A model generated the notes under the pieces. The model worked only from the letters and a program-made list of their open reading frames with translations. It ran no database searches and was not told where the DNA came from. Of a stretch of 11,469 nt of DNA, positions 1-11,469 are shown in pieces. Numbering within the stretch: position 1 is the first letter of the stretch; every line of letters starts with the position of its first letter. This stretch comes from a virus (Duplodnaviria; Heunggongvirae; Uroviricota; Caudoviricetes): IMG/VR virus record IMGVR_UViG_2660238126_000001, positions 1-11,469 of that record; one strand, 5' to 3'. A program made the position numbers and the translations under genes.

Positions 1-329
1 GGTATACGGAACAGTATGGCGTGAAGTGACCTGTGGGGCGAACTGGAATGGACATCACCAAGGACGAAACCTCCTCTCTCTGCAAAGGATAGTTATCCAT
101 CCGGGGCAACCTATACCTTTACCATAACTTCCGGCATAGCCACCTTGCTACAATCAAGGGGTGTTGAAGAAACATCCGTTTCGTGGTGCTTTTTTAGTCT
201 TTTGGGGATTTAAATTCCTATCGATGAACGGGGAGGAGATCTGGCCCTGGATGTTACCAACCGATCCCCGCAGACATTTGCTTTCAGAACAGTCTGAAAT
301 ATCAGTAATATCTGCAACAGGATGCCATT

Positions 330-347
330 CTTGTTTGCACGAACCAT
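330..347 (-). pseudogene. cII: cII 5' remnant: first 6 codons (MVRANK) with lambda-like RBS, then unrelated sequence
   Basis: Reverse complement of 330..360 reads aggaaatacttacat-ATG GTT CGT GCA AAC AA, matching the lambda cII start as I recall it. The downstream translation (NGILLQILLIF...) is low-complexity and not cII-like. Confidence 0.6.
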
Positions 348-426
348 ATGTAAGTATTTCCTTAGATAACAATTGATTGAATGTATGCAAATAAATGCAT
401 ACACCATAGGTGTGGTTTAATTGGAT

Positions 427-458
427 GCCCTTTTTCAGGGCTGTGATGTGTAAGAGCG
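427..458 (-). promoter_or_regulatory. nutR: nutR (boxA and boxB hairpin) N-utilisation site downstream of cro
   Basis: Minus strand reads cgctcttaca (boxA-like) followed by gccctgaaaaagggc (boxB inverted repeat), located between cro and the cII start as in lambda. Confidence 0.8.
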
Positions 459-465
459 GTGTTAT

Positions 466-675
<210 letters not shown>

Positions 676-690
676 TTAGTACATGCAATT

Positions 691-760
691 ATTATCACCG
701 CTAGAGGTAAAACAGTCAACACGCACGGTGTTAGATATTTATCCCTTGCGGTGATAGATT
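691..760. promoter_or_regulatory. Right operator region: OR1 (693..709), OR2 (717..733), OR3 (740..756), PR (-10 691..696, -35 714..719, minus strand) and PRM (-35 732..737, -10 755..760, plus strand)
   Basis: Three 17-bp sites tatcaccgctagaggta, caacacgcacggtgtta and tatcccttgcggtgata. OR2 and OR3 are identical to lambda as recalled and OR1 differs at one position. PR has ttgact-17-gataat on the cro strand; PRM has tagata-17-tagatt reading into cI, whose ATG at 767 is at the expected leaderless start. Confidence 0.9.
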
Positions 761-763
761 TAA

Positions 764-1480
<717 letters not shown>

Positions 1481-1519
1481 TGAAACCACTTTTATCTACA
1501 ATTTACAGGGCGGTAAACA

Positions 1520-2077
1520 TTGGCAAAAATAGATGATTATCAGCCAAGCCAAGTAGAAGTTGATAAAGTACTTTATTGTAAAAAAATAGTTAACTTTTCT
1601 GGCGTTAAATGGAAACAGAAACCAAGTCGCTCTGATATGTGGCTACAAGCTCATATCATCCCCTTGGATGAGGATTGTATACCTATACAAGGGCTAAAGT
1701 TTGAACTGAAATGGAAACCAGATCAGGATTCAGAACCTGATGACCCGATTTCTTACCCTAAAATAAATATTATTGCTTTCTATCATAACAAGAGGGTTTT
1801 CGCGGTAGATACCTATCACTTTGACAAACACACGAATAGTTACAAGGTCGATCATCCGAAGTACCAAGATATCATTTACGGTGCTCATTACCATGTATAC
1901 TATGAAGAAGCTGGATACTATAGTGATAGAATAGCGTTTCCAATCGAAGATGACATAAACCCAGATGACCTGGTAGGGTATTGGAATTACTTCTGTAAAC
2001 ATCTGAACATAACTTACTCTGGGAGAATACCTTTACCGCTTGAAGATGAGTCGGGGCAAATGGGGTTTGGAATATGA
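1520..2077 (+). CDS. Hypothetical protein A (185 aa), first gene of a two-gene cassette in the rexA position; acidic and rich in Tyr, His and Trp
   Basis: 558-nt ORF starting at TTG 1520, three codons after an in-frame TAA, with agggcgg about 10 nt upstream; the first in-frame ATG is codon 40 at 1637. Co-oriented with cI and visibly more AT-rich than the flanks. No transmembrane segment or recognisable catalytic motif by eye. Confidence 0.7.
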   Translation: MAKIDDYQPSQVEVDKVLYCKKIVNFSGVKWKQKPSRSDMWLQAHIIPLDEDCIPIQGLKFELKWKPDQDSEPDDPISYPKINIIAFYHNKRVFAVDTYHFDKHTNSYKVDHPKYQDIIYGAHYHVYYEEAGYYSDRIAFPIEDDINPDDLVGYWNYFCKHLNITYSGRIPLPLEDESGQMGFGI

Positions 2078-2826
2078 TGTGCTCAACAGTGATCTCACAA
2101 CTAGGTTTCGAATGCCATCCAATAGGCAAGACCTTGAGAATTATCAGTCCATTCACTTACTGTGATGATGGAGAGCATGTCGGTGCCTTTATCCGTGAAG
2201 TCAATGGTAGGTATTTAGTTAGTGACAGATGCGATGCCTTAATGAATATGGAGGCAAGAGGGATCTCGCTTACCAAAAAACGACTTGATGAGATACGACA
2301 ATTACTGCTTAAAGAAGGCGCAGAACTCAATGCTCGAGGAGAAATCATTGCTTGGGCAACAGAAAAGGATGTCGGTGCGATTACATCGAACATAATTAGA
2401 GCTGGTATACTCGCATCAACTTTGTCGTTAGACTGGTATCAGCCAGTTCAAGCTGAAAAGTTTGAAAGTATGGTTATTGATTATCTATATCACACAGAGC
2501 TTAGAGAGGCACTTTCTCTTCGTGAAAACGTATATGGCTTGAGTGGACATCAAATTACCGTCCCTGTAACAATAAAAACCGACATACCTAAATACGTTTT
2601 TACATCAAGCGTGAAACACGGAGGAAGCTGGAATAGTGCTTACTCATTGCTTGGGAAACTAATTGATCTTAAAGCTTCAAGTGAGGAGTATAACAACAGA
2701 TTTGTTGTTATAGACAGCGAAGCAATTGGTGATCAAATGCAACAACTCTCCTTACTCTTCCATGAATCAAGCCAAGTTCTACCATTCTCCAAAAGAGAGA
2801 CTTGGATTAAGAGACTTGCAGCATAA
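2074..2826 (+). CDS. Hypothetical protein B (250 aa), second gene of the cassette in the rexB position; soluble, with an N-terminal Cys/His cluster
   Basis: ATG 2074 overlaps the TGA stop of gene A (aatATGAtg), indicating translational coupling. 753-nt ORF ending at TAA 2824..2826, immediately followed by an intrinsic terminator. No lambda counterpart recognised. Confidence 0.8.
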   Translation: MMCSTVISQLGFECHPIGKTLRIISPFTYCDDGEHVGAFIREVNGRYLVSDRCDALMNMEARGISLTKKRLDEIRQLLLKEGAELNARGEIIAWATEKDVGAITSNIIRAGILASTLSLDWYQPVQAEKFESMVIDYLYHTELREALSLRENVYGLSGHQITVPVTIKTDIPKYVFTSSVKHGGSWNSAYSLLGKLIDLKASSEEYNNRFVVIDSEAIGDQMQQLSLLFHESSQVLPFSKRETWIKRLAA

Positions 2827-2831
2827 TACAA

Positions 2832-2857
2832 CCCGGCCTCAGCGCCGGGTTTTCTTT
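2832..2857 (+). terminator. Intrinsic terminator (tImm-like) closing the PRM immunity transcript
   Basis: cccggc-ctcagc-gccggg hairpin followed by ttttcttt. Sequence from here rightward to OL resembles the lambda rexB-distal / tImm region as I recall it. Confidence 0.8.
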
Positions 2858-3014
2858 GCCTCACGATCGCCCCACCTAAAAACACATAACCAATTGTATT
2901 TATTGGAAAATAAATAGATACAACTCACTAAACAACGCAATTCTGATCTCTCCTTACATCGCCGAGGCAATACACTCACTCGAAAAAATAAATCCATATA
3001 AAAAACATACAGAT

Positions 3015-3077
3015 AACCATTTGCGGTGATAAAATATCTCTAGCGGTGTTGACACAAATACCACTAGCGGTGATACT
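3015..3077 (+). promoter_or_regulatory. Left operator region OL3 (3015..3031), OL2 (3035..3051), OL1 (3059..3075) with PL promoter (-35 ttgaca 3049..3054, -10 gatact 3072..3077)
   Basis: Sites aaccatttgcggtgata, tatctctagcggtgttg and taccactagcggtgata. ttgaca-17-gatact reads rightward into nutL and N. Confidence 0.9.
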
Positions 3078-3117
3078 TAGCTCGTCAGCAGGACGCACTA
3101 ACCACCATTGAAGGTGA

Positions 3118-3148
3118 GGCTCTTAAAAATTTAGCCCTGAAGAAGGGC
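3118..3148 (+). promoter_or_regulatory. nutL: nutL (boxA ggctcttaa and boxB gccctgaagaagggc)
   Basis: boxA-like 9-mer followed by a perfect boxB hairpin sequence, about 45 nt downstream of the PL -10. Confidence 0.85.
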
Positions 3149-3258
3149 AGCATTCAAAGCAGAAAGCTTTGAGTAGCGCGAAATGCAGCTGCAAGACAGC
3201 AACCGTGGGGATAAGCATCACGGCGCGTTACTCAAAGCTAACTGACAGGAGAATCCAG

Positions 3259-3582
3259 ATGGATGCACAAACACGCCGCCGCGAACGTCGCGCAGAGAAA
3301 CAGGCTCAATGGAAAGCAGCAAATCCCCTGTTGGTTGGGGTAAGCGCAAAACCAGTTAACCGCCCTATTCTCTCGCTGAATCGCAAACCGAAATCACGAG
3401 TAGAAAGCGCACTGAATCCGATAGACCTTACAGTGCTGGCTGAATACCACGAACAGATTGAAAGCAACCTGCAACGTATTGAGCGCAAGAATCAGCGCAC
3501 ATGGTACAGCAAGCCTGGCGAACGCGGCATAACATGCAGTGGACGCCAGAAAATTAAGGGAAAATCGATTCCTCTTATCTAG
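3259..3582 (+). CDS. N: Antitermination protein N (107 aa)
   Basis: Translation MDAQTRRRERRAEKQAQWKAANPLL...KGKSIPLI with the arginine-rich motif, preceded by RBS aggagaatccag-ATG. The track's longer 3169 start is a TTG extension and is rejected. Confidence 0.96.
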   Translation: MDAQTRRRERRAEKQAQWKAANPLLVGVSAKPVNRPILSLNRKPKSRVESALNPIDLTVLAEYHEQIESNLQRIERKNQRTWYSKPGERGITCSGRQKIKGKSIPLI

Positions 3583-4348: not shown

Positions 4349-4511
4349 TAAGAATCAATGGTGTGGACAATTCAAGCGATGCAATGGATGCAAGCTGCAA
4401 TCGGAATGCATGGTTAAGCCTGAAGAAATGTTTCCTGTAATGGAAGATGGGAAATATGTCGATAAATGGGCAATACGAACGACGGCAATGATTGCCAGAG
4501 AACTTGGTTAA
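4332..4511 (+). CDS. ral: Restriction alleviation protein Ral, ending early at TAA (59 aa); the frame continues QNNKAA to TGA at 4530..4532
   Basis: Translation MTTTIDKNQWCGQFKRCNGCKLQSECMVKPEEMFPVMEDGKYVDKWAIRTTAMIARELG*. Lambda Ral is 66 aa as I recall, and 59 + 7 in-frame codons gives 66. Confidence 0.8.
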   Translation: MTTTIDKNQWCGQFKRCNGCKLQSECMVKPEEMFPVMEDGKYVDKWAIRTTAMIARELG

Positions 4512-4668
4512 CAGAACAACAAAGCTGCCTGATAGTGGCCTTTATTTTTGGCATAAATAACAGAATAAACACTGCACTGTGTATTCATTCCAACGAGTGA
4601 ATACACGGAGCAATGTCGCTCGTAACTAAACAGGAGCCGACTTGTTCTGATTATTGGAAATCTTCTTT

Positions 4669-4694
4669 GCCCTCCAGTGTGAGGGCGATTTTTT
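4669..4694 (+). terminator. Intrinsic terminator-like hairpin upstream of ea10 (tL-type, presumably read through under N antitermination)
   Basis: gccctc-cagtgt-gagggc stem-loop followed by gatttttta. Confidence 0.55.
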
Positions 4695-4714
4695 ATCTAT
4701 GAGGATATGAACAG

Positions 4715-5083
4715 ATGTCAAACATCAAAAAATACATCATTGATTACGACTGGAAAGCATCAATAGAAATTGAAATCGACCATGACGTAATGACAGAGGA
4801 AAAACTTCACCAGATTAATAATTTCTGGTCAGACTCTGAATACCGACTCAATAAACACGGCTCTGTATTAAATGCTGTATTAATCATGCTGGCGCAACAT
4901 GCTCTGCTTATAGCAATTTCAAGCGACTTAAATGCATATGGTGTTGTGTGTGAGTTCGACTGGAATGATGGAAATGGTCAGGAAGGATGGCCTCCAATGG
5001 ATGGTAGCGAAGGAATAAGAATTACCGATATCGATACATCAGGAATATTTGATTCAGATGATATGACTATCAAAGCCGCCTGA
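4715..5083 (+). CDS. ea10: Ea10 protein (122 aa)
   Basis: Translation MSNIKKYIIDYDWKASIEIEIDHDV...DSDDMTIKAA, in the lambda ea10 position between ral and cIII. Confidence 0.85.
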   Translation: MSNIKKYIIDYDWKASIEIEIDHDVMTEEKLHQINNFWSDSEYRLNKHGSVLNAVLIMLAQHALLIAISSDLNAYGVVCEFDWNDGNGQEGWPPMDGSEGIRITDIDTSGIFDSDDMTIKAA

Positions 5084-5155
5084 GCGCGGCGTTACCGCAT
5101 ACCAATAACGCTTCACTCGAGGCGTTTTTCGTTATGTATAAATAAGGAGCACACC

Positions 5156-5320
5156 ATGCAATATGCCATTGCAGGGTGGCCTGTTGCTGGCTGCCCTTCC
5201 GAATCTTTACTTGAACGAATCACCCGTAAATTACGTGACGGATGGAAACGCCTTATCGACATACTTAATCAGCCAGGAGTCCCAAAAAATGGATCAAACA
5301 CTTATGGCTATCCAGACTAA
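5156..5320 (+). CDS. cIII: CIII (54 aa), FtsH inhibitor that stabilises CII
   Basis: Translation [54 protein letters not shown] with RBS aaggag upstream. The track ORF 5163..5432 is a different frame. Confidence 0.9.
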   Translation: MQYAIAGWPVAGCPSESLLERITRKLRDGWKRLIDILNQPGVPKNGSNTYGYPD

Positions 5321-5432
5321 ATTCACTATCGCCACTTTTATTGGCGATGAAAAGATGTTTCGTGAGGCCGTCGACGCTTATAAAAAATGGATATTAATAC
5401 TGAAACTGAGATCAAGCAAAAGCATTCACTAA
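5289..5432 (+). CDS. kil: Kil (47 aa), host cell-division inhibitor
   Basis: Translation [47 protein letters not shown]. Overlaps the cIII 3' end and the gam 5' end as in lambda. Confidence 0.85.
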
Positions 5433-5803
5433 CCCCCTTTCCTGTTTTCCTAATCAGCCCGGCATTTCGCGGGCGATATTTTCACAGCTATTTCAGGAGT
5501 TCAGCCATGAACGCTTATTACATTCAGGATCGTCTTGAGGCTCAGAGCTGGACGCGTCACTACCAGCAGCTCGCCCGTGAAGAGAAAGAGGCAGAACTGG
5601 CAGACGACATGGAAAAAAGCCTGCCCCAGCACCTGTTTGAATCGCTATGCATCGATCATTTGCAACGCCACGGGGCCAGCAAAAAAGCCATTACCCGTGC
5701 GTTTGATGACGATGTTGAGTTTCAGGAGCGCATGGCAGAACACATCCGGTACATGGTTGAAACCATTGCTCACCACCAGGTTGATATTGATTCAGAGGTA
5801 TAA
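5387..5803 (+). CDS. gam: Gam (138 aa), RecBCD inhibitor
   Basis: Translation [22 protein letters not shown]... with internal Met ([15 protein letters not shown]...) corresponding to GamS, ending ...[10 protein letters not shown]. Confidence 0.95.
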
Positions 5804-8474: not shown

Positions 8475-8772
8475 GTAGAAGGTGTTATCTCGGATGGAAG
8501 TAAGCGTATTGCTGAACTGGAGGCCTGGGTTGAATACACAAGAGCTGCATACGTAAGAGCAAAAGACAAGGGAGATTTGATCAGAGTTATTACCCGACAA
8601 CCAACGGGATTTTACGCTTACGTACCATGTAATTAGGAATCCTTGAAGTGGCAGCCTAACTGCGGATACACTGAAATGGCGATTTGGTAACATGTTTCGC
8701 ACAAGGCTGTTACTACGCTTAAAGATAATCAGCCATGATTAAACGCTTTGTAAAAAGTAAAAGGAAATTACA

Positions 8773-9387
8773 ATGAAAAAATCAATACTAATTTTAGGGC
8801 TTACGTTAATTGTCTCATCTCAAATACCATCGGCAATGGCAAAAAATGAATCAAGACTTTGGGTTGTTGTTGATCGAACGGAAAGACATACCTGCCCTTC
8901 AAGTAAATGTGGAGTGGCTGGGAAACTATTTTTCAGGGAAGGCGTAGATTTTCTAGAAAAAAAAGGTGAATGGGTTCGTATAACTGAGCCATATTCAGCC
9001 TCATGTGTGGGAGGGGAAAGCGAATATATTAAAGAAGGTAATAAATCCTGCACAAGAAAAAACGGAATCGTCAATGGCAAGTTTTCAGAATGGGTTAAAC
9101 TTAGTGATCTTAGCAGTGAAAGGCCATCAGATCCTGCTGAAAATGCGAGCGGAGATGATACTTTAATCAAAGGATCTGATGACTACCGTATATACAAAAA
9201 AGAGTTTTCTTCGGCAGCTAGGAAGTTAATAAACGAAGGGGTCTGCACGGAAAGCGACTTTAAGGAAATCGGAGGGTGGATGGCATCAAGCAATAAGGGG
9301 AAAAACATCTATTTCACATATTGCGGAGGAATGACGTTGTCGAACAGAATATACCTAGACGTTAAAAGTGGAAAGACTTTTAGATAA
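8773..9387 (+). CDS. Secreted/periplasmic protein (204 aa) with a Sec signal peptide and an SH3b-like N-terminal region; AT-rich moron
   Basis: Signal peptide MKKSILILGLTLIVSSQIPSAMA followed by KNE. SH3b-like pattern in RLWVVVDRTERHTCPSSKCGVAGKLFFREGVDFLEKKGEWVRITEP. Seven Cys in the mature part. RBS aaggaaa precedes the ATG. Not part of lambda. Confidence 0.75.
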   Translation: MKKSILILGLTLIVSSQIPSAMAKNESRLWVVVDRTERHTCPSSKCGVAGKLFFREGVDFLEKKGEWVRITEPYSASCVGGESEYIKEGNKSCTRKNGIVNGKFSEWVKLSDLSSERPSDPAENASGDDTLIKGSDDYRIYKKEFSSAARKLINEGVCTESDFKEIGGWMASSNKGKNIYFTYCGGMTLSNRIYLDVKSGKTFR

Positions 9388-9458
9388 TATGATATTACCA
9401 ATGACAGTATTAATTTAATGCCTCCATAGAATTATCTCTAGGAAGTATGTATAAGAAA

Positions 9459-9492
9459 AGCCCGCACAATGAGCTGCTGCGGGCTTTGTGTT
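9459..9492 (+). terminator. Intrinsic terminator after the secreted-protein gene
   Basis: agcccgca-caatgagctgc-tgcgggct hairpin followed by ttgtgttatt. Confidence 0.6.
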
Positions 9493-9740
9493 ATTCGCCA
9501 TATTTTATGAAGCAAATACGACACTATAGATAATTAAGCGTTGCTGGTTGTCGATTCCTCACTCACTCCTGTTGATGGCTCTCTTCTTGTATGTGCCATT
9601 GAAGGGTAATATCGAGTAAAAAGATACCGGAAGTATCCGCGCCGCCATGATTGTCTTTCTCCTAATGCAGGAAAAGCAGAATGGCTAAATCATCAGCAGA
9701 GCGCAAAGTCGATCAGAGAGCCAAGCAAGCATCATCCGGT

Positions 9741-10019
9741 ATGCGTAAGCTGGAGCTTGTACTTGATGCTCAGGAAATTGAAATGCTGGATCGTAACTGA
9801 GCCACGCGCCGCTTCAGGCATGCGCCTTACGAGTTTGGTGAGTACATCGCGTTACTGAGCCGCCAGGATGATGCACGTGTGCGCTGGCGTATAAAATCGA
9901 TCAGCAGAAAACGTTGCGATAAGTGCGGCGAGAGAGTTCCTGTTAATTCATGCCCGTGTAATGGTGACTCACAATGCTGGGTGACCAAAGGCTGGCACGA
10001 AACAAAATTAATGATATAA
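9741..10019 (+). pseudogene. ea8.5: Ea8.5-like homeodomain/zinc-ribbon protein interrupted by an in-frame TGA at 9798..9800
   Basis: The frame reads MRKLELVLDAQEIEMLDRN*ATRRFRHAPYEFGEYIALLSRQDDARVRWRIKSISRKRCDKCGERVPVNSCPCNGDSQCWVTKGWHETKLMI*. The 72-codon segment after the TGA has no in-frame ATG and carries the Cys cluster. Total length (92 codons) and position match lambda Ea8.5. Confidence 0.5.
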
Positions 10020-10025
10020 ATCTCT

Positions 10026-10037
10026 GTGACATGTCAC
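10026..10037. promoter_or_regulatory. Perfect 12-bp palindrome gtgacatgtcac immediately 5' of the RBS of the 142-aa ORF
   Basis: Exact inverted repeat, followed by ggagg (10038..10042) and ATG 10048. Candidate operator or RNA hairpin. Confidence 0.4.
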
Positions 10038-10047
10038 GGAGGCGGCA

Positions 10048-10476
10048 ATGAAATTAGACCAGCAATATCTAAAAGATCTACTTATCGCATTCGAAAAAAC
10101 TCATGGCCCTGACACGATGCTTAGTGAACTAGAGGATAATGGCTTTAATAGATATGACCAAAATTTTATTTTCCATATGCGATTATTATGCGACTACGAA
10201 TTAATAGTCAGGGTTGATGGAAAACCTGGGTTCGGTCATATAATGTCCAACGAGTTAGGGGAAGGTGTTGGATATAGTTGGATCGAAGTACCACTGAGGT
10301 TGACAGCAAGAGGGCATGATTTTATTGCTGACTTGCGTCAAAAGGAGGTCTGGCAAACTATAAAAACAAACTTTAAGGATGAGGGAATTAGTACACTAAT
10401 AAGTGTTTCAAAATCACTAGCAAAAGGCTTTGCAAGGAAAAAGATAAAAGATATTACAGGAATAGATATTGAATAA
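10048..10476 (+). CDS. Hypothetical cytoplasmic protein (142 aa); AT-rich moron inserted between the ea8.5 and orf55 homologues
   Basis: Strong RBS ggagg 5 nt upstream of the ATG. Translation MKLDQQYLKDLLIAFEKTHGPDTMLSELEDNGFNRYDQNFIFHMRLLCDYELIVRVDG.... Lambda has only a short spacer here as I recall. Confidence 0.8.
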   Translation: MKLDQQYLKDLLIAFEKTHGPDTMLSELEDNGFNRYDQNFIFHMRLLCDYELIVRVDGKPGFGHIMSNELGEGVGYSWIEVPLRLTARGHDFIADLRQKEVWQTIKTNFKDEGISTLISVSKSLAKGFARKKIKDITGIDIE

Positions 10477-10558
10477 TTCTTAGCATCAGCAACTACTGCC
10501 TTTGGTGGAAATTATATCTGAACTCGCTACGGCGAGTTTTGTTTTATGGAGATGATAA

Positions 10559-10984: not shown

Positions 10985-11175
10985 GCGCCGGGATTTACCC
11001 CCTAACCTTTATATAAGAAACAATGGATATTACTGCTACAGGGACCCAAGGACGGGTAAAGAGTTTGGATTAGGCCGAGACAGGCGAATCGCAATCACTG
11101 AAGCTATACAGGCCAACATTGAGTTATTTTCAGGACACAAACACAAGCCTCTGACAGCGAGNNNCANNAGNGNTN
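10962..11175 (+). pseudogene. int: Integrase Int, N-terminal arm-binding region only (about 71 codons); lambda-like sequence stops after a patch of ambiguous bases
   Basis: Translation MGRRRSHERRDLPPNLYIRNNGYYCYRDPRTGKEFGLGRDRRIAITEAIQANIELFSGHKHKPLTA matches lambda Int from memory and overlaps the xis 3' end. The defined bases within 11161..11175 are consistent with int, but from 11176 the sequence no longer encodes Int and stops at 11211..11213. Confidence 0.8.
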
Positions 11176-11469
11176 ATGTACGAGCTAAATGTTACTCCGT
11201 TAAAATAAATTAGTAACAAACGCCCTATAACGTACTGAAAATTATGCCTGTGATCTAGCGCCAAAAATCAGTATTTCGGCGTGAACTCGCAAAATATTAA
11301 CGATTCAGCCGTGATAGTGGGATAAACACCTTAGAACGCCGGATAAAGACTGATAATTGTCTTCGACGGTCGGGTAAAACGAGACATCGCCCCGGCACGA
11401 ATCACTACTTAACACGGATGGCTTCAGCCCCCGTTTTCACACGAAGGTCGATGCGGCGACCAAATCGTT

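What the first reader, a model, noticed from the sequence alone, without database searches (positions are those of the whole stretch)
1481..2857. Non-lambda two-gene cassette replaces rexA-rexB between cI and tImm
Lambda-like sequence ends at the cI stop codon (1480) and resumes at the tImm hairpin (2832). In between, where lambda carries rexA-rexB, sit two translationally coupled ORFs (185 aa and 250 aa; ATGA overlap at 2074..2077) that I cannot match to any lambda protein. They are co-oriented with cI with no evident promoter of their own, so they would be made from PRM in the lysogen. The segment is visibly AT-richer than the flanking cI and red genes. Unlike RexB, neither product has transmembrane helices, so any exclusion mechanism would differ from Rex membrane depolarisation. 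The cI-to-PL slot is a known site for prophage-encoded exclusion and anti-phage genes.
Basis: partly seen in the sequence, partly recalled or inferred. Interest (0 to 1): 0.9.

Follow-up and report, generated by a model that had tools for sequence, protein, structure and literature searches.

The report
Unknown gene pair replacing lambda rexAB
In this lambda-type prophage the classic rexA-rexB exclusion genes are cleanly swapped for a widespread, never-characterised pair of cytoplasmic proteins that always sits just behind prophage repressor genes; it is most likely an untested kind of anti-phage defence.

Summary
Lambda homology stops one base after the cI stop codon (1481) and resumes at the tImm hairpin (2830). 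In between lie two overlapping ORFs (185 and 250 aa, ATGA overlap) with no similarity to RexA/RexB and no membrane segments.

The cassette is not unique. It is at least 99% identical in 241 of 5,426 complete E. coli genomes (CFT073, Nissle 1917, ATCC 25922) and in 7 phage records. In 100 of 100 informative loci the two genes are adjacent. In prophages they follow a co-oriented repressor: 33 of 40 distinct upstream proteins are LexA/cI-type.

Both proteins weakly match the two components of PDC-M24, a PADLOC candidate defence system predicted in silico and never tested. Distant relatives sit next to restriction-modification genes.

ORF-B combines a chaperone/YbjN-like DUF1828 domain with a restriction-endonuclease-like fold that lacks the canonical catalytic motif. 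ORF-A is a confident model with no solved structural neighbour, an invariant His/Asn/Asp cluster and a conserved weak GTG/TTG start codon.

Best reading: a lysogen-expressed, cytoplasmic two-protein anti-phage module. The function is unproven. Cassette swapping in this slot has been documented since 2007, so this is a good experimental candidate rather than a surprise.

The parts
693..756 (.). OR1 (693-709), OR2 (717-733) and OR3 (740-756) operators of lambda immunity
   Evidence: OR2 and OR3 match lambda exactly; OR1 has 1 substitution.
732..760 (+). PRM promoter (-35 TAGATA at 732-737, -10 TAGATT at 755-760), the presumed promoter for cI and the cassette in a lysogen
   Evidence: Both hexamers are found at the lambda positions, just upstream of the leaderless cI ATG at 767. 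Its role as cassette promoter is inferred from lambda cI-rexA-rexB.
767..1480 (+). cI repressor, 237 aa, lambda immunity
   Evidence: 96.5% nucleotide identity to lambda. From position 1070 on it is 98% identical to ev017/PhiR57_1-type phages.
1481..1519 (+). Left junction and 39-nt cI-to-ORF-A spacer (lambda homology ends at 1481)
   Evidence: The spacer is the same 39 nt behind two different repressor types.
1520..2077 (+). ORF-A, 185 aa, TTG start. Soluble, mostly beta, with no solved structural relative. Family-wide invariant W31, R92, N106, H123, H125, F158, P173; nearly invariant K22, D97, H104, G121, Q180
   Evidence: It gives a weak partial match to DUF6978 and PDC-M24A.
2074..2077 (+). 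ATGA start/stop overlap (translational coupling signal)
   Evidence: The overlap is conserved in nearly all homologous loci.
2074..2826 (+). ORF-B, 250 aa. N-terminal DUF1828 domain (about residues 1-116, YbjN/type III chaperone-like fold) plus C-terminal restriction-endonuclease-like alpha-beta-beta-beta-alpha-beta domain (about 128-250) with invariant S157-G158-H159, D198 and R209
2830..2859 (+). tImm intrinsic terminator (lambda homology resumes at 2830, 3 nt after the ORF-B stop codon)
   Evidence: stem AACCCGGC/GCCGGGUU, -17.2 kcal/mol for the 56-nt context.
3015..3077 (+). OL3, OL2 and OL1 operators and the PL promoter. PL points away from the cassette, so the cassette is not in the PL transcript
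   Evidence: TTGACA-17-GATACT at 3049-3077; OL1-3, 1 substitution each.

Best explanation
The segment is a two-gene accessory operon ('moron') carried in the repressor-adjacent slot of lambdoid prophages.

Expression (inferred from anatomy): it is transcribed together with cI from PRM in the lysogen, and from PRE during establishment of lysogeny, and the transcript ends at tImm. This is the same arrangement as lambda rexA-rexB.

Function (inferred): its two soluble products form a cytoplasmic anti-phage module of the superinfection exclusion or abortive infection type. The module is a divergent, prophage-borne branch of the untested PADLOC candidate PDC-M24.

Mechanism (speculative): ORF-B acts as sensor or regulator. 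Its DUF1828 domain has the fold of type III secretion chaperones and YbjN proteins, which bind partner proteins. Its C-terminal domain has a restriction-endonuclease fold with a non-canonical Ser-Gly-His site, which could bind or cut nucleic acid. ORF-A is kept scarce by a conserved GTG/TTG start codon and carries an invariant His/Asn/His/His/Asp cluster. It would be the enzymatic partner or effector that ORF-B holds in check until an infecting phage supplies the trigger.

Shown: the anatomy, the conservation, the pairing, the position and the folds. Inferred: co-transcription with cI. Hypothesised: the defence role and the division of labour between A and B.
For: Position and expression:
- The replacement runs exactly from the cI stop codon to tImm, with PRM and the operators intact.
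- No promoter signal above chance lies in the cassette.
- The same pair lies directly downstream of, and co-oriented with, the prophage repressor in Aeromonas, Klebsiella and Photorhabdus prophages.
- Across 80 viral contigs there are 40 distinct upstream proteins, of which 34 carry HTH_3 and 33 carry Peptidase_S24. Their mean column identity is only 24%, so many immunity types are involved.
- The cassette at 99% identity or more follows three different repressors.

Pairing:
- A is followed by B in 100 of 100 loci that have room downstream, nearly always with an ATGA overlap.
- The two proteins co-diverge (Spearman 0.97).
- A 25%-identical A homolog in a metagenome is also followed by a DUF1828 protein.

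Link to defence:
- B matches PDC-M24B over its full length (E 5.8e-10), and A matches PDC-M24A (E 4.8e-4), in the same gene order.
- All 18 diverse B homologs hit PDC-M24B.
- PDC-M24 was predicted from embedding in BREX, DISARM or type I RM loci.
- Distant homologs lie next to a type III RM system on an integrative element, next to an N6/N4 methylase, and next to a Dcm-Vsr-EcoRII module.
- The cI-N slot holds rexAB, BstA and other exclusion genes.

Folds:

Other:
- The GTG/TTG start on A is found in every prophage-clade variant.
- Nissle 1917 'prophage 3' carries the pair. That prophage was linked to lambda/Stx-phage resistance, with an additional unidentified factor.
Against: - No experiment on this pair or on PDC-M24 was found. 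All database names are 'hypothetical' or 'DUF1828'.
- The match of A to PDC-M24A/DUF6978 is weak, partial and below Pfam's cut-off (22 bits against 29.6).
- The canonical D...(D/E)xK catalytic motif is absent from B's nuclease-like domain, so nuclease activity is uncertain.
- A's biochemical activity is unknown.
- The pair was not among the systems recovered in the E. coli functional selection whose models are in PADLOC; there was no hit to any PD-T4, PD-T7 or PD-lambda model.
- Several distant-clade loci sit among ordinary chromosomal genes.
- Transcription from PRM was not measured.
- Position in the slot is not proof of defence. The same slot holds a hicAB toxin-antitoxin pair in mEp234.
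Confidence: 0.5

Rival explanations
1. The pair is a toxin-antitoxin-like addiction or stabilisation module. It helps keep the prophage in the host or modulates host growth and has no dedicated anti-phage role. ORF-A, made from a weak start codon, would be the toxin, and ORF-B would neutralise it.
For: - It is a compact two-gene operon with a 4-nt overlap and strict pairing.
- A conserved weak start on the upstream gene is typical of toxin-first modules.
- The same slot in mEp234 holds hicAB.
- B's N-terminal domain has a chaperone-like, protein-binding fold.
Against: - There is no HTH or RHH DNA-binding antitoxin domain and no own promoter for autoregulation.
- Neither protein hits any known toxin or antitoxin family.
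- B, at 250 aa with two domains, is unlike typical antitoxins.
- Many toxin-antitoxin modules are themselves phage defences, so this rival overlaps with the main explanation.
Confidence: 0.15
2. The pair serves the prophage's own development. It would modulate the lysis-lysogeny switch or process DNA during induction, as lambda RexA is reported to influence the bistable switch, rather than acting on other phages.
For: - There is tight, conserved linkage to the repressor gene across many immunity types.
- The cI C-terminal half and the cassette travel as one block, window 1070-2991.
- RexA has a reported role at PRM (paper PMC12894663).
- B has a nucleic-acid-enzyme-like fold.
Against: - The cassette at 99% identity or more works behind three unrelated repressors and operators, which argues against specific contacts with one repressor.
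- Distant relatives occur outside prophages, beside restriction-modification genes.
- The pair is retained in defective prophages such as the one in Nissle 1917.
Confidence: 0.1
3. The pair is a lysogenic-conversion cargo that benefits the host in a way unrelated to phages, such as stress tolerance, colonisation or virulence. Lambda bor and lom are examples of such cargo.
For: - The cassette occurs in well-known extraintestinal and gut strains (CFT073, UM146, APEC O18, NU14, Nissle 1917).
- Its AT-rich composition is typical of morons.
Against: - Both proteins are cytoplasmic, with no signal peptide or membrane segment.
- One has a nuclease-like fold.
- The family is associated with restriction-modification loci and with a defence-candidate model.
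- The pair is also conserved in prophages of Aeromonas, Photorhabdus, Yersinia, Serratia and Pectobacterium, which have very different lifestyles.
Confidence: 0.1
4. The segment is simply a highly diverged rexA-rexB.
For: Only the position and the two-gene layout support this.
Against: - There is no sequence or profile similarity to RexA or RexB.
- The sizes differ: 185 and 250 aa here, against 279 and 144 aa in lambda.
- ORF-B has no membrane helices, whereas RexB is polytopic.
- The folds are different.
Confidence: 0.01

Closest known systems
PADLOC phage-defence candidate PDC-M24 (Payne et al. 2024 preprint, 10.1101/2024.01.29.577857; cassette FAM_00129>>FAM_00065)
   Same: Both are two-gene A-then-B cassettes. 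ORF-B matches PDC-M24B over its full length, and ORF-A matches the C-terminal, His-rich part of PDC-M24A. Distant relatives of the pair lie beside restriction-modification genes.
   Different: The matches are weak (37 and 18 bits), so this is a separate branch. ORF-A falls below Pfam's cut-off for the related DUF6978. Here the pair is prophage cargo behind a repressor rather than embedded in RM or BREX loci. PDC-M24 is only a prediction and has no tested function.
Lambda RexA-RexB exclusion system
   Same: The genomic slot is identical (cI stop codon to tImm). Both are co-oriented with cI and presumably expressed from PRM/PRE in lysogens. Both are two-component cassettes and both are AT-rich.
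   Different: There is no homology. Neither protein is a membrane protein, whereas RexB is an inner-membrane protein. There is no internal PLIT-like promoter signal. One component has a nuclease-like fold, so membrane depolarisation is not the likely mechanism.
BstA (Salmonella prophage BTP1) and other repressor-adjacent prophage defences, including RexAB of Pseudomonas putida
   Same: They share the conserved position downstream of the prophage repressor and presumably share its promoter. That slot is a recognised mosaic hotspot (PMC8585504; PMC12894663).
   Different: BstA is a single protein with its own DNA-encoded self-immunity element. There is no sequence relationship, since no PADLOC hit other than PDC-M24 was found.
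Alternative cassettes in the cI-tImm slot of wild lambda-immunity phages (HK542, mEp332, mEp234; GenBank EF120456, EF120458, EF120460)
   Same: They have the same flanks (lambda-type cI and tImm) and the same kind of precise module exchange.
   Different: The genes are unrelated: tblastn of A and B finds nothing. Contents differ too: two other unknown ORFs in HK542, a single 345-aa ORF in mEp332, and hicAB plus one ORF in mEp234.
Sensor-plus-PD-(D/E)xK-nuclease defence proteins (e.g. the CRISPR ancillary nuclease Can2/Card1) and the type II restriction enzymes PspGI, NgoMIV and Cfr10I
   Different: The N-terminal domain is YbjN/chaperone-like, not CARF. The canonical D...(D/E)xK residues are replaced by an invariant Ser-Gly-His with no ExK. 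No sequence-profile similarity to an EcoRII-C enzyme was found.

Membership tests
PADLOC candidate system PDC-M24 | A protein matching a PDC-M24B model | tested here: met
   ORF-B scores E 5.8e-10 and 37.2 bits, covering residues 2-248 against model positions 4-253 of 256. All 18 diverse family members hit it, with a best E of 9.8e-12.
PADLOC candidate system PDC-M24 | A protein matching a PDC-M24A model | tested here: inconclusive
   ORF-A scores E 4.8e-4 and 18.1 bits, and only residues 104-163 match. Three of 23 distant ORF-A relatives hit PDC-M24A, with a best E of 1.5e-6.
PADLOC candidate system PDC-M24 | A and B adjacent on the same strand, in A-then-B order | tested here: met
   The two ORFs share an ATGA overlap at 2074-2077. 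The order holds in 100 of 100 informative loci.
PADLOC candidate system PDC-M24 | Found embedded in or next to BREX, DISARM or RM loci (the basis of the prediction) | tested here: not met
   In the window and in all prophage-clade loci the neighbours are a repressor and early phage genes. Only the distant betaproteobacterial clade is next to RM genes, in 3 of 11 loci.
PADLOC candidate system PDC-M24 | Demonstrated anti-phage activity | not testable with these tools
   No paper mentions PDC-M24. The source preprint lists it as an untested candidate.
Lambda RexAB | Sequence homology to RexA and RexB | tested here: not met
   blastp gives no E-value below 1, and family profiles score negative bits against RexA and RexB.
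Lambda RexAB | One component is a polytopic inner-membrane protein (RexB) | tested here: not met
   The maximum 19-residue hydropathy is 0.45 for A and 1.19 for B, against 2.39 for RexB.
Lambda RexAB | Located between cI and tImm, co-oriented with cI | tested here: met
Lambda RexAB | Excludes T4 rII mutants by abortive infection | not testable with these tools
   This needs plaque and survival assays.
Pfam DUF1828 (PF08861) | Score above the gathering threshold | tested here: met
   ORF-B residues 26-110 score 33.5 bits against a cut-off of 22. All 18 family members hit the model.
Pfam DUF6978 (PF22398) | Score above the gathering threshold | tested here: not met
   ORF-A scores 22 bits against a cut-off of 29.6, and only the C-terminal 60 residues match. 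Three of 23 distant relatives hit the model, with a best E of 2e-6, so the family is a probable sister group rather than a member.
PD-(D/E)xK nuclease superfamily (ORF-B C-terminal domain) | Alpha-beta-beta-beta-alpha-beta core fold | tested here: met
PD-(D/E)xK nuclease superfamily (ORF-B C-terminal domain) | Catalytic Asp at the start of strand 2 and (D/E)xK in strand 3 | tested here: not met
   Invariant S157-G158-H159 sits at the start of strand 2. Strand 3 has no conserved acidic-x-Lys. The other invariant polar residues are D198 and R209. The domain may be a variant active site or catalytically dead.
PD-(D/E)xK nuclease superfamily (ORF-B C-terminal domain) | Metal-dependent nucleic-acid cleavage | not testable with these tools
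   This needs purified protein.
YbjN / type III secretion chaperone-like fold (ORF-B N-terminal domain) | Structural similarity to family members | tested here: met
Type II toxin-antitoxin system | An antitoxin with a DNA-binding domain that autoregulates its own promoter, plus a toxin of a known family | tested here: not met
   Neither protein has an HTH or RHH domain or matches a toxin family. There is no promoter signal above chance upstream of ORF-A.

The most novel reading that the evidence does not exclude
The pair is a mechanistically new immune module. ORF-A would be a previously unseen enzyme fold, with an invariant His/Asn/His/His/Asp centre, kept at very low level by a conserved non-ATG start codon. 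It would be the effector. ORF-B would guard it through a secretion-chaperone-like domain and a degenerate nuclease fold that reads out a phage-derived protein or nucleic acid. This branch would have been domesticated by lambdoid prophages of many genera as their repressor-linked defence. It would also be the unidentified factor behind the phage resistance conferred by prophage 3 of E. coli Nissle 1917.
Probability: 0.25. Interest if true: 0.75.

Novelty: new variant of a known kind. Interest (0 to 1): 0.55.

Why it matters
If it is a defence system, it would join the short list of prophage immune modules expressed with the repressor, alongside RexAB and BstA. Its protein families are entirely different: one has no solved structural relative, and the other combines a chaperone-like domain with an atypical nuclease fold.

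It is common in medically and commercially important E. coli. It occurs in 4.4% of complete genomes, including uropathogen CFT073, reference strain ATCC 25922 and the probiotic Nissle 1917. It could therefore affect phage-therapy host range and the phage resistance of probiotic strains.

It would also give the first functional handle on the untested PADLOC candidate PDC-M24 and on the domains DUF1828 and DUF6978. The cassette is only 1.35 kb, has a natural promoter context, and has clear point-mutation targets, so it is cheap to test.

Tried and rejected
- **Diverged rexAB.** Rejected: no sequence or profile similarity, different sizes and different topology.
- **Relation to the other known slot cassettes** (HK542, mEp332, mEp234). 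tblastn found nothing.
- **Solved-structure relatives by sequence.** None was found for either family, even at E-values up to 10. The only low E-value, to a designed Kelch-repeat protein, had no individually significant stretch and is taken as a repeat artefact.
- **His-Me (HNH) finger idea for ORF-A.** The residue spacing is atypical and there is no structural support. Dropped.
- **Profile comparison of ORF-B with an EcoRII-C enzyme.** No signal, probability 0.1%.
- **NCBIfam.** No meaningful hit.
- **PHROGs.** Only families of unknown function.
- **Rfam.** No RNA family lies in the cassette.
- **Internal promoter comparable to lambda PLIT.** Only chance-level 9-of-12 matches.
- **Literature.** Searches for PDC-M24, DUF1828, DUF6978, PF08861, PF22398 and the PHROG numbers returned nothing relevant.
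- **Brenes and Laub 2025.** This screen of E. coli prophage defences (Cell Host Microbe) could not be read, so prior testing there cannot be excluded.
- **Genome-context scans with the broadest ORF-A alignments.** A five-sequence sub-alignment worked.
Full report
**What is in the sequence**

The window is a lambda-type immunity and early-left region, read as the reverse complement of the standard lambda map. The gene order is cro (466-666, minus strand), cI (767-1480), two ORFs, tImm, OL/PL, N, sieB, then onward through gam-bet-exo to xis and int.

BLAST against lambda gives sharp breakpoints:
- window 331-1481 equals lambda 38376-37226 (96.5% identity);
- window 2830-3171 equals lambda 35826-35496 (89%);
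- window 3233 onward is 98-99% lambda.

Lambda 37225-35827 holds the cI-rexA spacer, rexA and rexB up to its stop codon. It is replaced by 1,348 bp, window 1482-2829.

The tImm hairpin follows the ORF-B stop codon by three bases. PRM, OR1-3 and OL1-3 are in place, with 0-1 substitutions each.

The two ORFs are 1520-2077 (185 aa, TTG start) and 2074-2826 (250 aa). They overlap in ATGA.

- Neither protein resembles RexA or RexB by blastp or by family profile.
- Neither has a membrane segment, whereas RexB clearly does.
- The cassette is 39.3% GC, against 45.5% for cI and 51.5% for the red genes. Lambda's own rex segment is 41.0%, so AT-richness is a property of the slot's cargo in general.
- Promoter-like matches in 400-3400 are no more frequent than in shuffled sequence. 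The only strong ones are PR and PL.

**How common the cassette is**

- It occurs at 99.7% identity in seven GenBank phage records: ev017, ev207, PhiR57_1, PhiR63_2 and an Stx1a phage.
- It occurs at 99% or more in 241 of 5,426 complete E. coli genomes, always once and always chromosomal. These include CFT073, ATCC 25922, UM146, APEC O18, the type strain and Nissle 1917.
- Every source names the proteins 'hypothetical' or 'DUF1828 domain-containing'. The exact ORF-A sequence is on at least 1,000 contigs.
- The block shared with those genomes runs from the middle of cI (window 1070) to about 2991.
- The particular combination with lambda-type operators is absent from the complete E. coli genomes. 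It is present at 99.8-100% identity in three independent viral contigs.

**Conservation and pairing**

ORF-B homologs at 47-84% identity occur in Salmonella, Yersinia, Erwinia, Serratia, Photorhabdus, Providencia, Pectobacterium, Klebsiella, Aeromonas and Thorsellia. ORF-A homologs are fewer and diverge faster.

An exhaustive profile search found only 32 representative clusters among 1.84 billion proteins.

I collected 101 further loci from annotated genomes, viral contigs and species-representative genomes. In every one of the 100 loci, window included, with sequence available downstream of ORF-A, an ORF-B homolog abuts it, nearly always with the ATGA overlap. The identities of A and B to the window proteins co-vary (Spearman 0.97), with A always the more diverged.

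One conserved detail stands out. In every prophage-clade variant (37-99% identity) ORF-A begins with GTG or TTG, never ATG. Its N-terminus is nevertheless conserved as protein, so the weak start codon is real and maintained.

**Genomic position**

In Aeromonas caviae, Klebsiella and Photorhabdus prophages the pair lies directly downstream of, and co-oriented with, the prophage repressor, opposite a cro-like gene.

Across the viral contigs the co-oriented upstream gene falls into 40 distinct proteins. Of these, 34 carry HTH_3 and 33 carry Peptidase_S24, with only 24% mean column identity among them. The E. coli cassette at 99% identity or more follows three different repressors.

This is the signature of a mobile cargo module that uses the repressor's transcription unit.

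The slot is a documented mosaic hotspot holding rexAB, BstA and others (PMC8585504; PMC12894663). GenBank records from 2007 of wild lambda-immunity phages show other cassettes between the same cI and tImm:
- two unknown ORFs in HK542;
- a single 345-aa ORF in mEp332;
- hicAB plus one ORF in mEp234.

None of these is related to the present pair.

**Family assignment**

- ORF-B matches Pfam DUF1828 above threshold in its N-terminal 110 residues.
- ORF-B also matches the PADLOC model PDC-M24B over its full length (E 5.8e-10).
- ORF-A matches DUF6978 and PDC-M24A only weakly and partially (E about 2-5e-4, below Pfam's cut-off).
- A few distant ORF-A relatives bridge somewhat better, with a best E around 2e-6.
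- All 18 diverse ORF-B relatives hit PDC-M24B, but never strongly.

PDC-M24 is one of 145 candidates predicted by 'guilt-by-embedding' in BREX, DISARM or type I RM loci. It is listed as cassette FAM_00129>>FAM_00065 with a count of 153, and it has no experimental test. No paper in the library mentions it.

The most distant clade I could fetch is betaproteobacterial, at 21-28% identity in ORF-A. It fits a defence-island habit in part:
- one locus is an integrase/primase island carrying the pair next to a type III RM system;
- one has the pair next to an HTH gene and an N6/N4 methylase;
- one lies beside a Dcm-Vsr-EcoRII module.

Other loci in this clade sit among ordinary chromosomal genes.

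**Structures**

The ORF-B model (pLDDT 81, pTM 0.61) has two domains joined by a low-confidence linker.

The secondary-structure order of residues 128-213 is the canonical alpha-beta-beta-beta-alpha-beta nuclease core. The first group therefore most plausibly aligns to the DUF1828 half and the second to the C-terminal half. That assignment is an inference.

The canonical catalytic residues are absent. An invariant Ser157-Gly158-His159 occupies the start of strand 2, strand 3 has no acidic-x-Lys, and the other invariant polar residues are D198 and R209. The domain may be a variant nuclease or a non-catalytic nucleic-acid-binding module.

Across the whole ORF-A family the invariant residues are W31, R92, N106, H123, H125, F158 and P173. 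D97, H104, G121 and Q180 are nearly invariant.

**Interpretation**

Three things are well supported:
- the segment is a real, conserved, translationally coupled two-gene operon;
- it is mobile cargo of the repressor-adjacent slot;
- it is unrelated to Rex.

Co-transcription with cI from PRM and PRE, ending at tImm, is a strong inference from anatomy. PL lies downstream of tImm and points away from the cassette, so the cassette is not in the PL transcript.

A defence function is the best single hypothesis. It rests on the slot, the two-component match to a defence candidate, the RM neighbours of distant relatives, the nuclease-like fold, and the circumstantial case of Nissle 1917.

In Nissle 1917 the cassette-bearing prophage is the 'prophage 3' linked by Bury et al. 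2018 to lambda and Stx-phage resistance. The authors state that another, unidentified factor of that prophage must contribute. By position, the cassette genes are their EcN_1291 and EcN_1292, listed as 'hypothetical proteins'.

The division of labour I propose is speculative: ORF-B as chaperone-like sensor or regulator, and scarce ORF-A as enzymatic effector. It leans on the conserved weak start codon of ORF-A, the degenerate catalytic site of ORF-B, and the protein-binding fold of DUF1828.

The rival explanations are a toxin-antitoxin or addiction module, a modulator of the prophage's own switch, and a host-fitness cargo. They cannot be excluded without experiments.

**Verdict**

Cassette replacement at this slot has been known since 2007. 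The sequence is common and already deposited. A distant branch of the family has already been flagged in silico as a defence candidate.

What remains new is that both protein families are functionally blank, one apparently without any solved structural relative, and that the prophage branch has a tight, conserved association with repressor genes.

I could not read Brenes and Laub 2025, so prior experimental testing there cannot be ruled out.

Noticed in passing
window 1520-1522, and homologous loci L004-L091: ORF-A starts with TTG here and with GTG or TTG in every prophage-clade homolog (37-99% identity), never ATG. Its N-terminus (MAK...) is nevertheless conserved as protein. The weak start codon therefore appears to be under selection, suggesting that ORF-A must be kept scarce.
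   Followed up: partly
L108 (E. coli Nissle 1917, NZ_CP022686.1) 2960-3329 and 4451-5757: The primers that Bury et al. 2018 used for the Nissle 'phage repressor (pr, EcN_1294)' bracket the CII-family regulator gene, not the LexA-type repressor. That gene lies 1.1 kb from the cassette in the same prophage ('prophage 3'). By position the cassette genes are EcN_1291 and EcN_1292, 'hypothetical', absent from strains SE15, IAI1 and MG1655. The authors postulated a further unidentified resistance factor in this prophage.
   Followed up: partly
window 1070-2991: The block shared at about 98% identity with ev017/PhiR57_1-type phages and with 239 E. coli genomes starts in the middle of cI, at the boundary between the DNA-binding half and the C-terminal half, and ends just before OL. 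The cI C-terminal half therefore travels with the cassette. The combination with lambda operators is absent from 5,426 complete E. coli genomes but present in three viral contigs, L016, L026 and L032.
   Followed up: partly
window 1-330: Lambda homology begins only 17 nt into cII, at lambda 38376. The first 330 bases are not phage. Bases 52-330 are 100% identical to an unannotated segment found mostly on E. coli plasmids, at 2,207 plasmid places. cII, O and P are therefore missing on this side, so the element is either rearranged or defective, or the contig is chimeric.
   Followed up: partly
window 11162-11469: Scattered N characters at 11162-11175 interrupt int. After them comes about 245 bp matching an unannotated repeat present in all 5,426 E. 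coli genomes (median 2 places per genome). The last 55 bases match the lambda tail genes K/I. This end of the window is also non-contiguous.
   Followed up: partly
window 8522-10510: A second non-lambda segment replaces lambda 30093-29334 (the end of ea22 and ea8.5). It encodes a 204-aa protein with a signal-peptide-like N-terminus and no Pfam or PADLOC match (8773-9387), and a 142-aa DUF2513 protein (10048-10476).
   Followed up: partly
window 2830-3232: The tImm-OL-PL-nutL stretch is only 89% identical to lambda, with one substitution in each OL operator. The 61 bases at 3172-3232, in the N leader, have no lambda counterpart, although the flanking cI and N regions are 96-99% lambda.
   Followed up: no
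L049 5609-5950 and L054 5609-5950: In some prophages a 113-aa DUF3024 protein, rather than a repressor, is the gene immediately upstream of the ORF-A homolog. The slot can therefore hold additional cargo in front of the pair.
   Followed up: no
supplementary table of preprint 10.1101/2024.01.29.577857: The PDC-M24B family (FAM_00065) is also listed with a different upstream partner (FAM_01408>>FAM_00065, count 15) and in a three-gene form. This hints that the DUF1828 protein is the constant component and the upstream partner is exchangeable.
   Followed up: no
window 5143-5201: The lambda cIII thermoregulator RNA element (Rfam RF01804, 88.5 bits) is present and intact. This is ordinary for a lambda-like phage.
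   Followed up: yes
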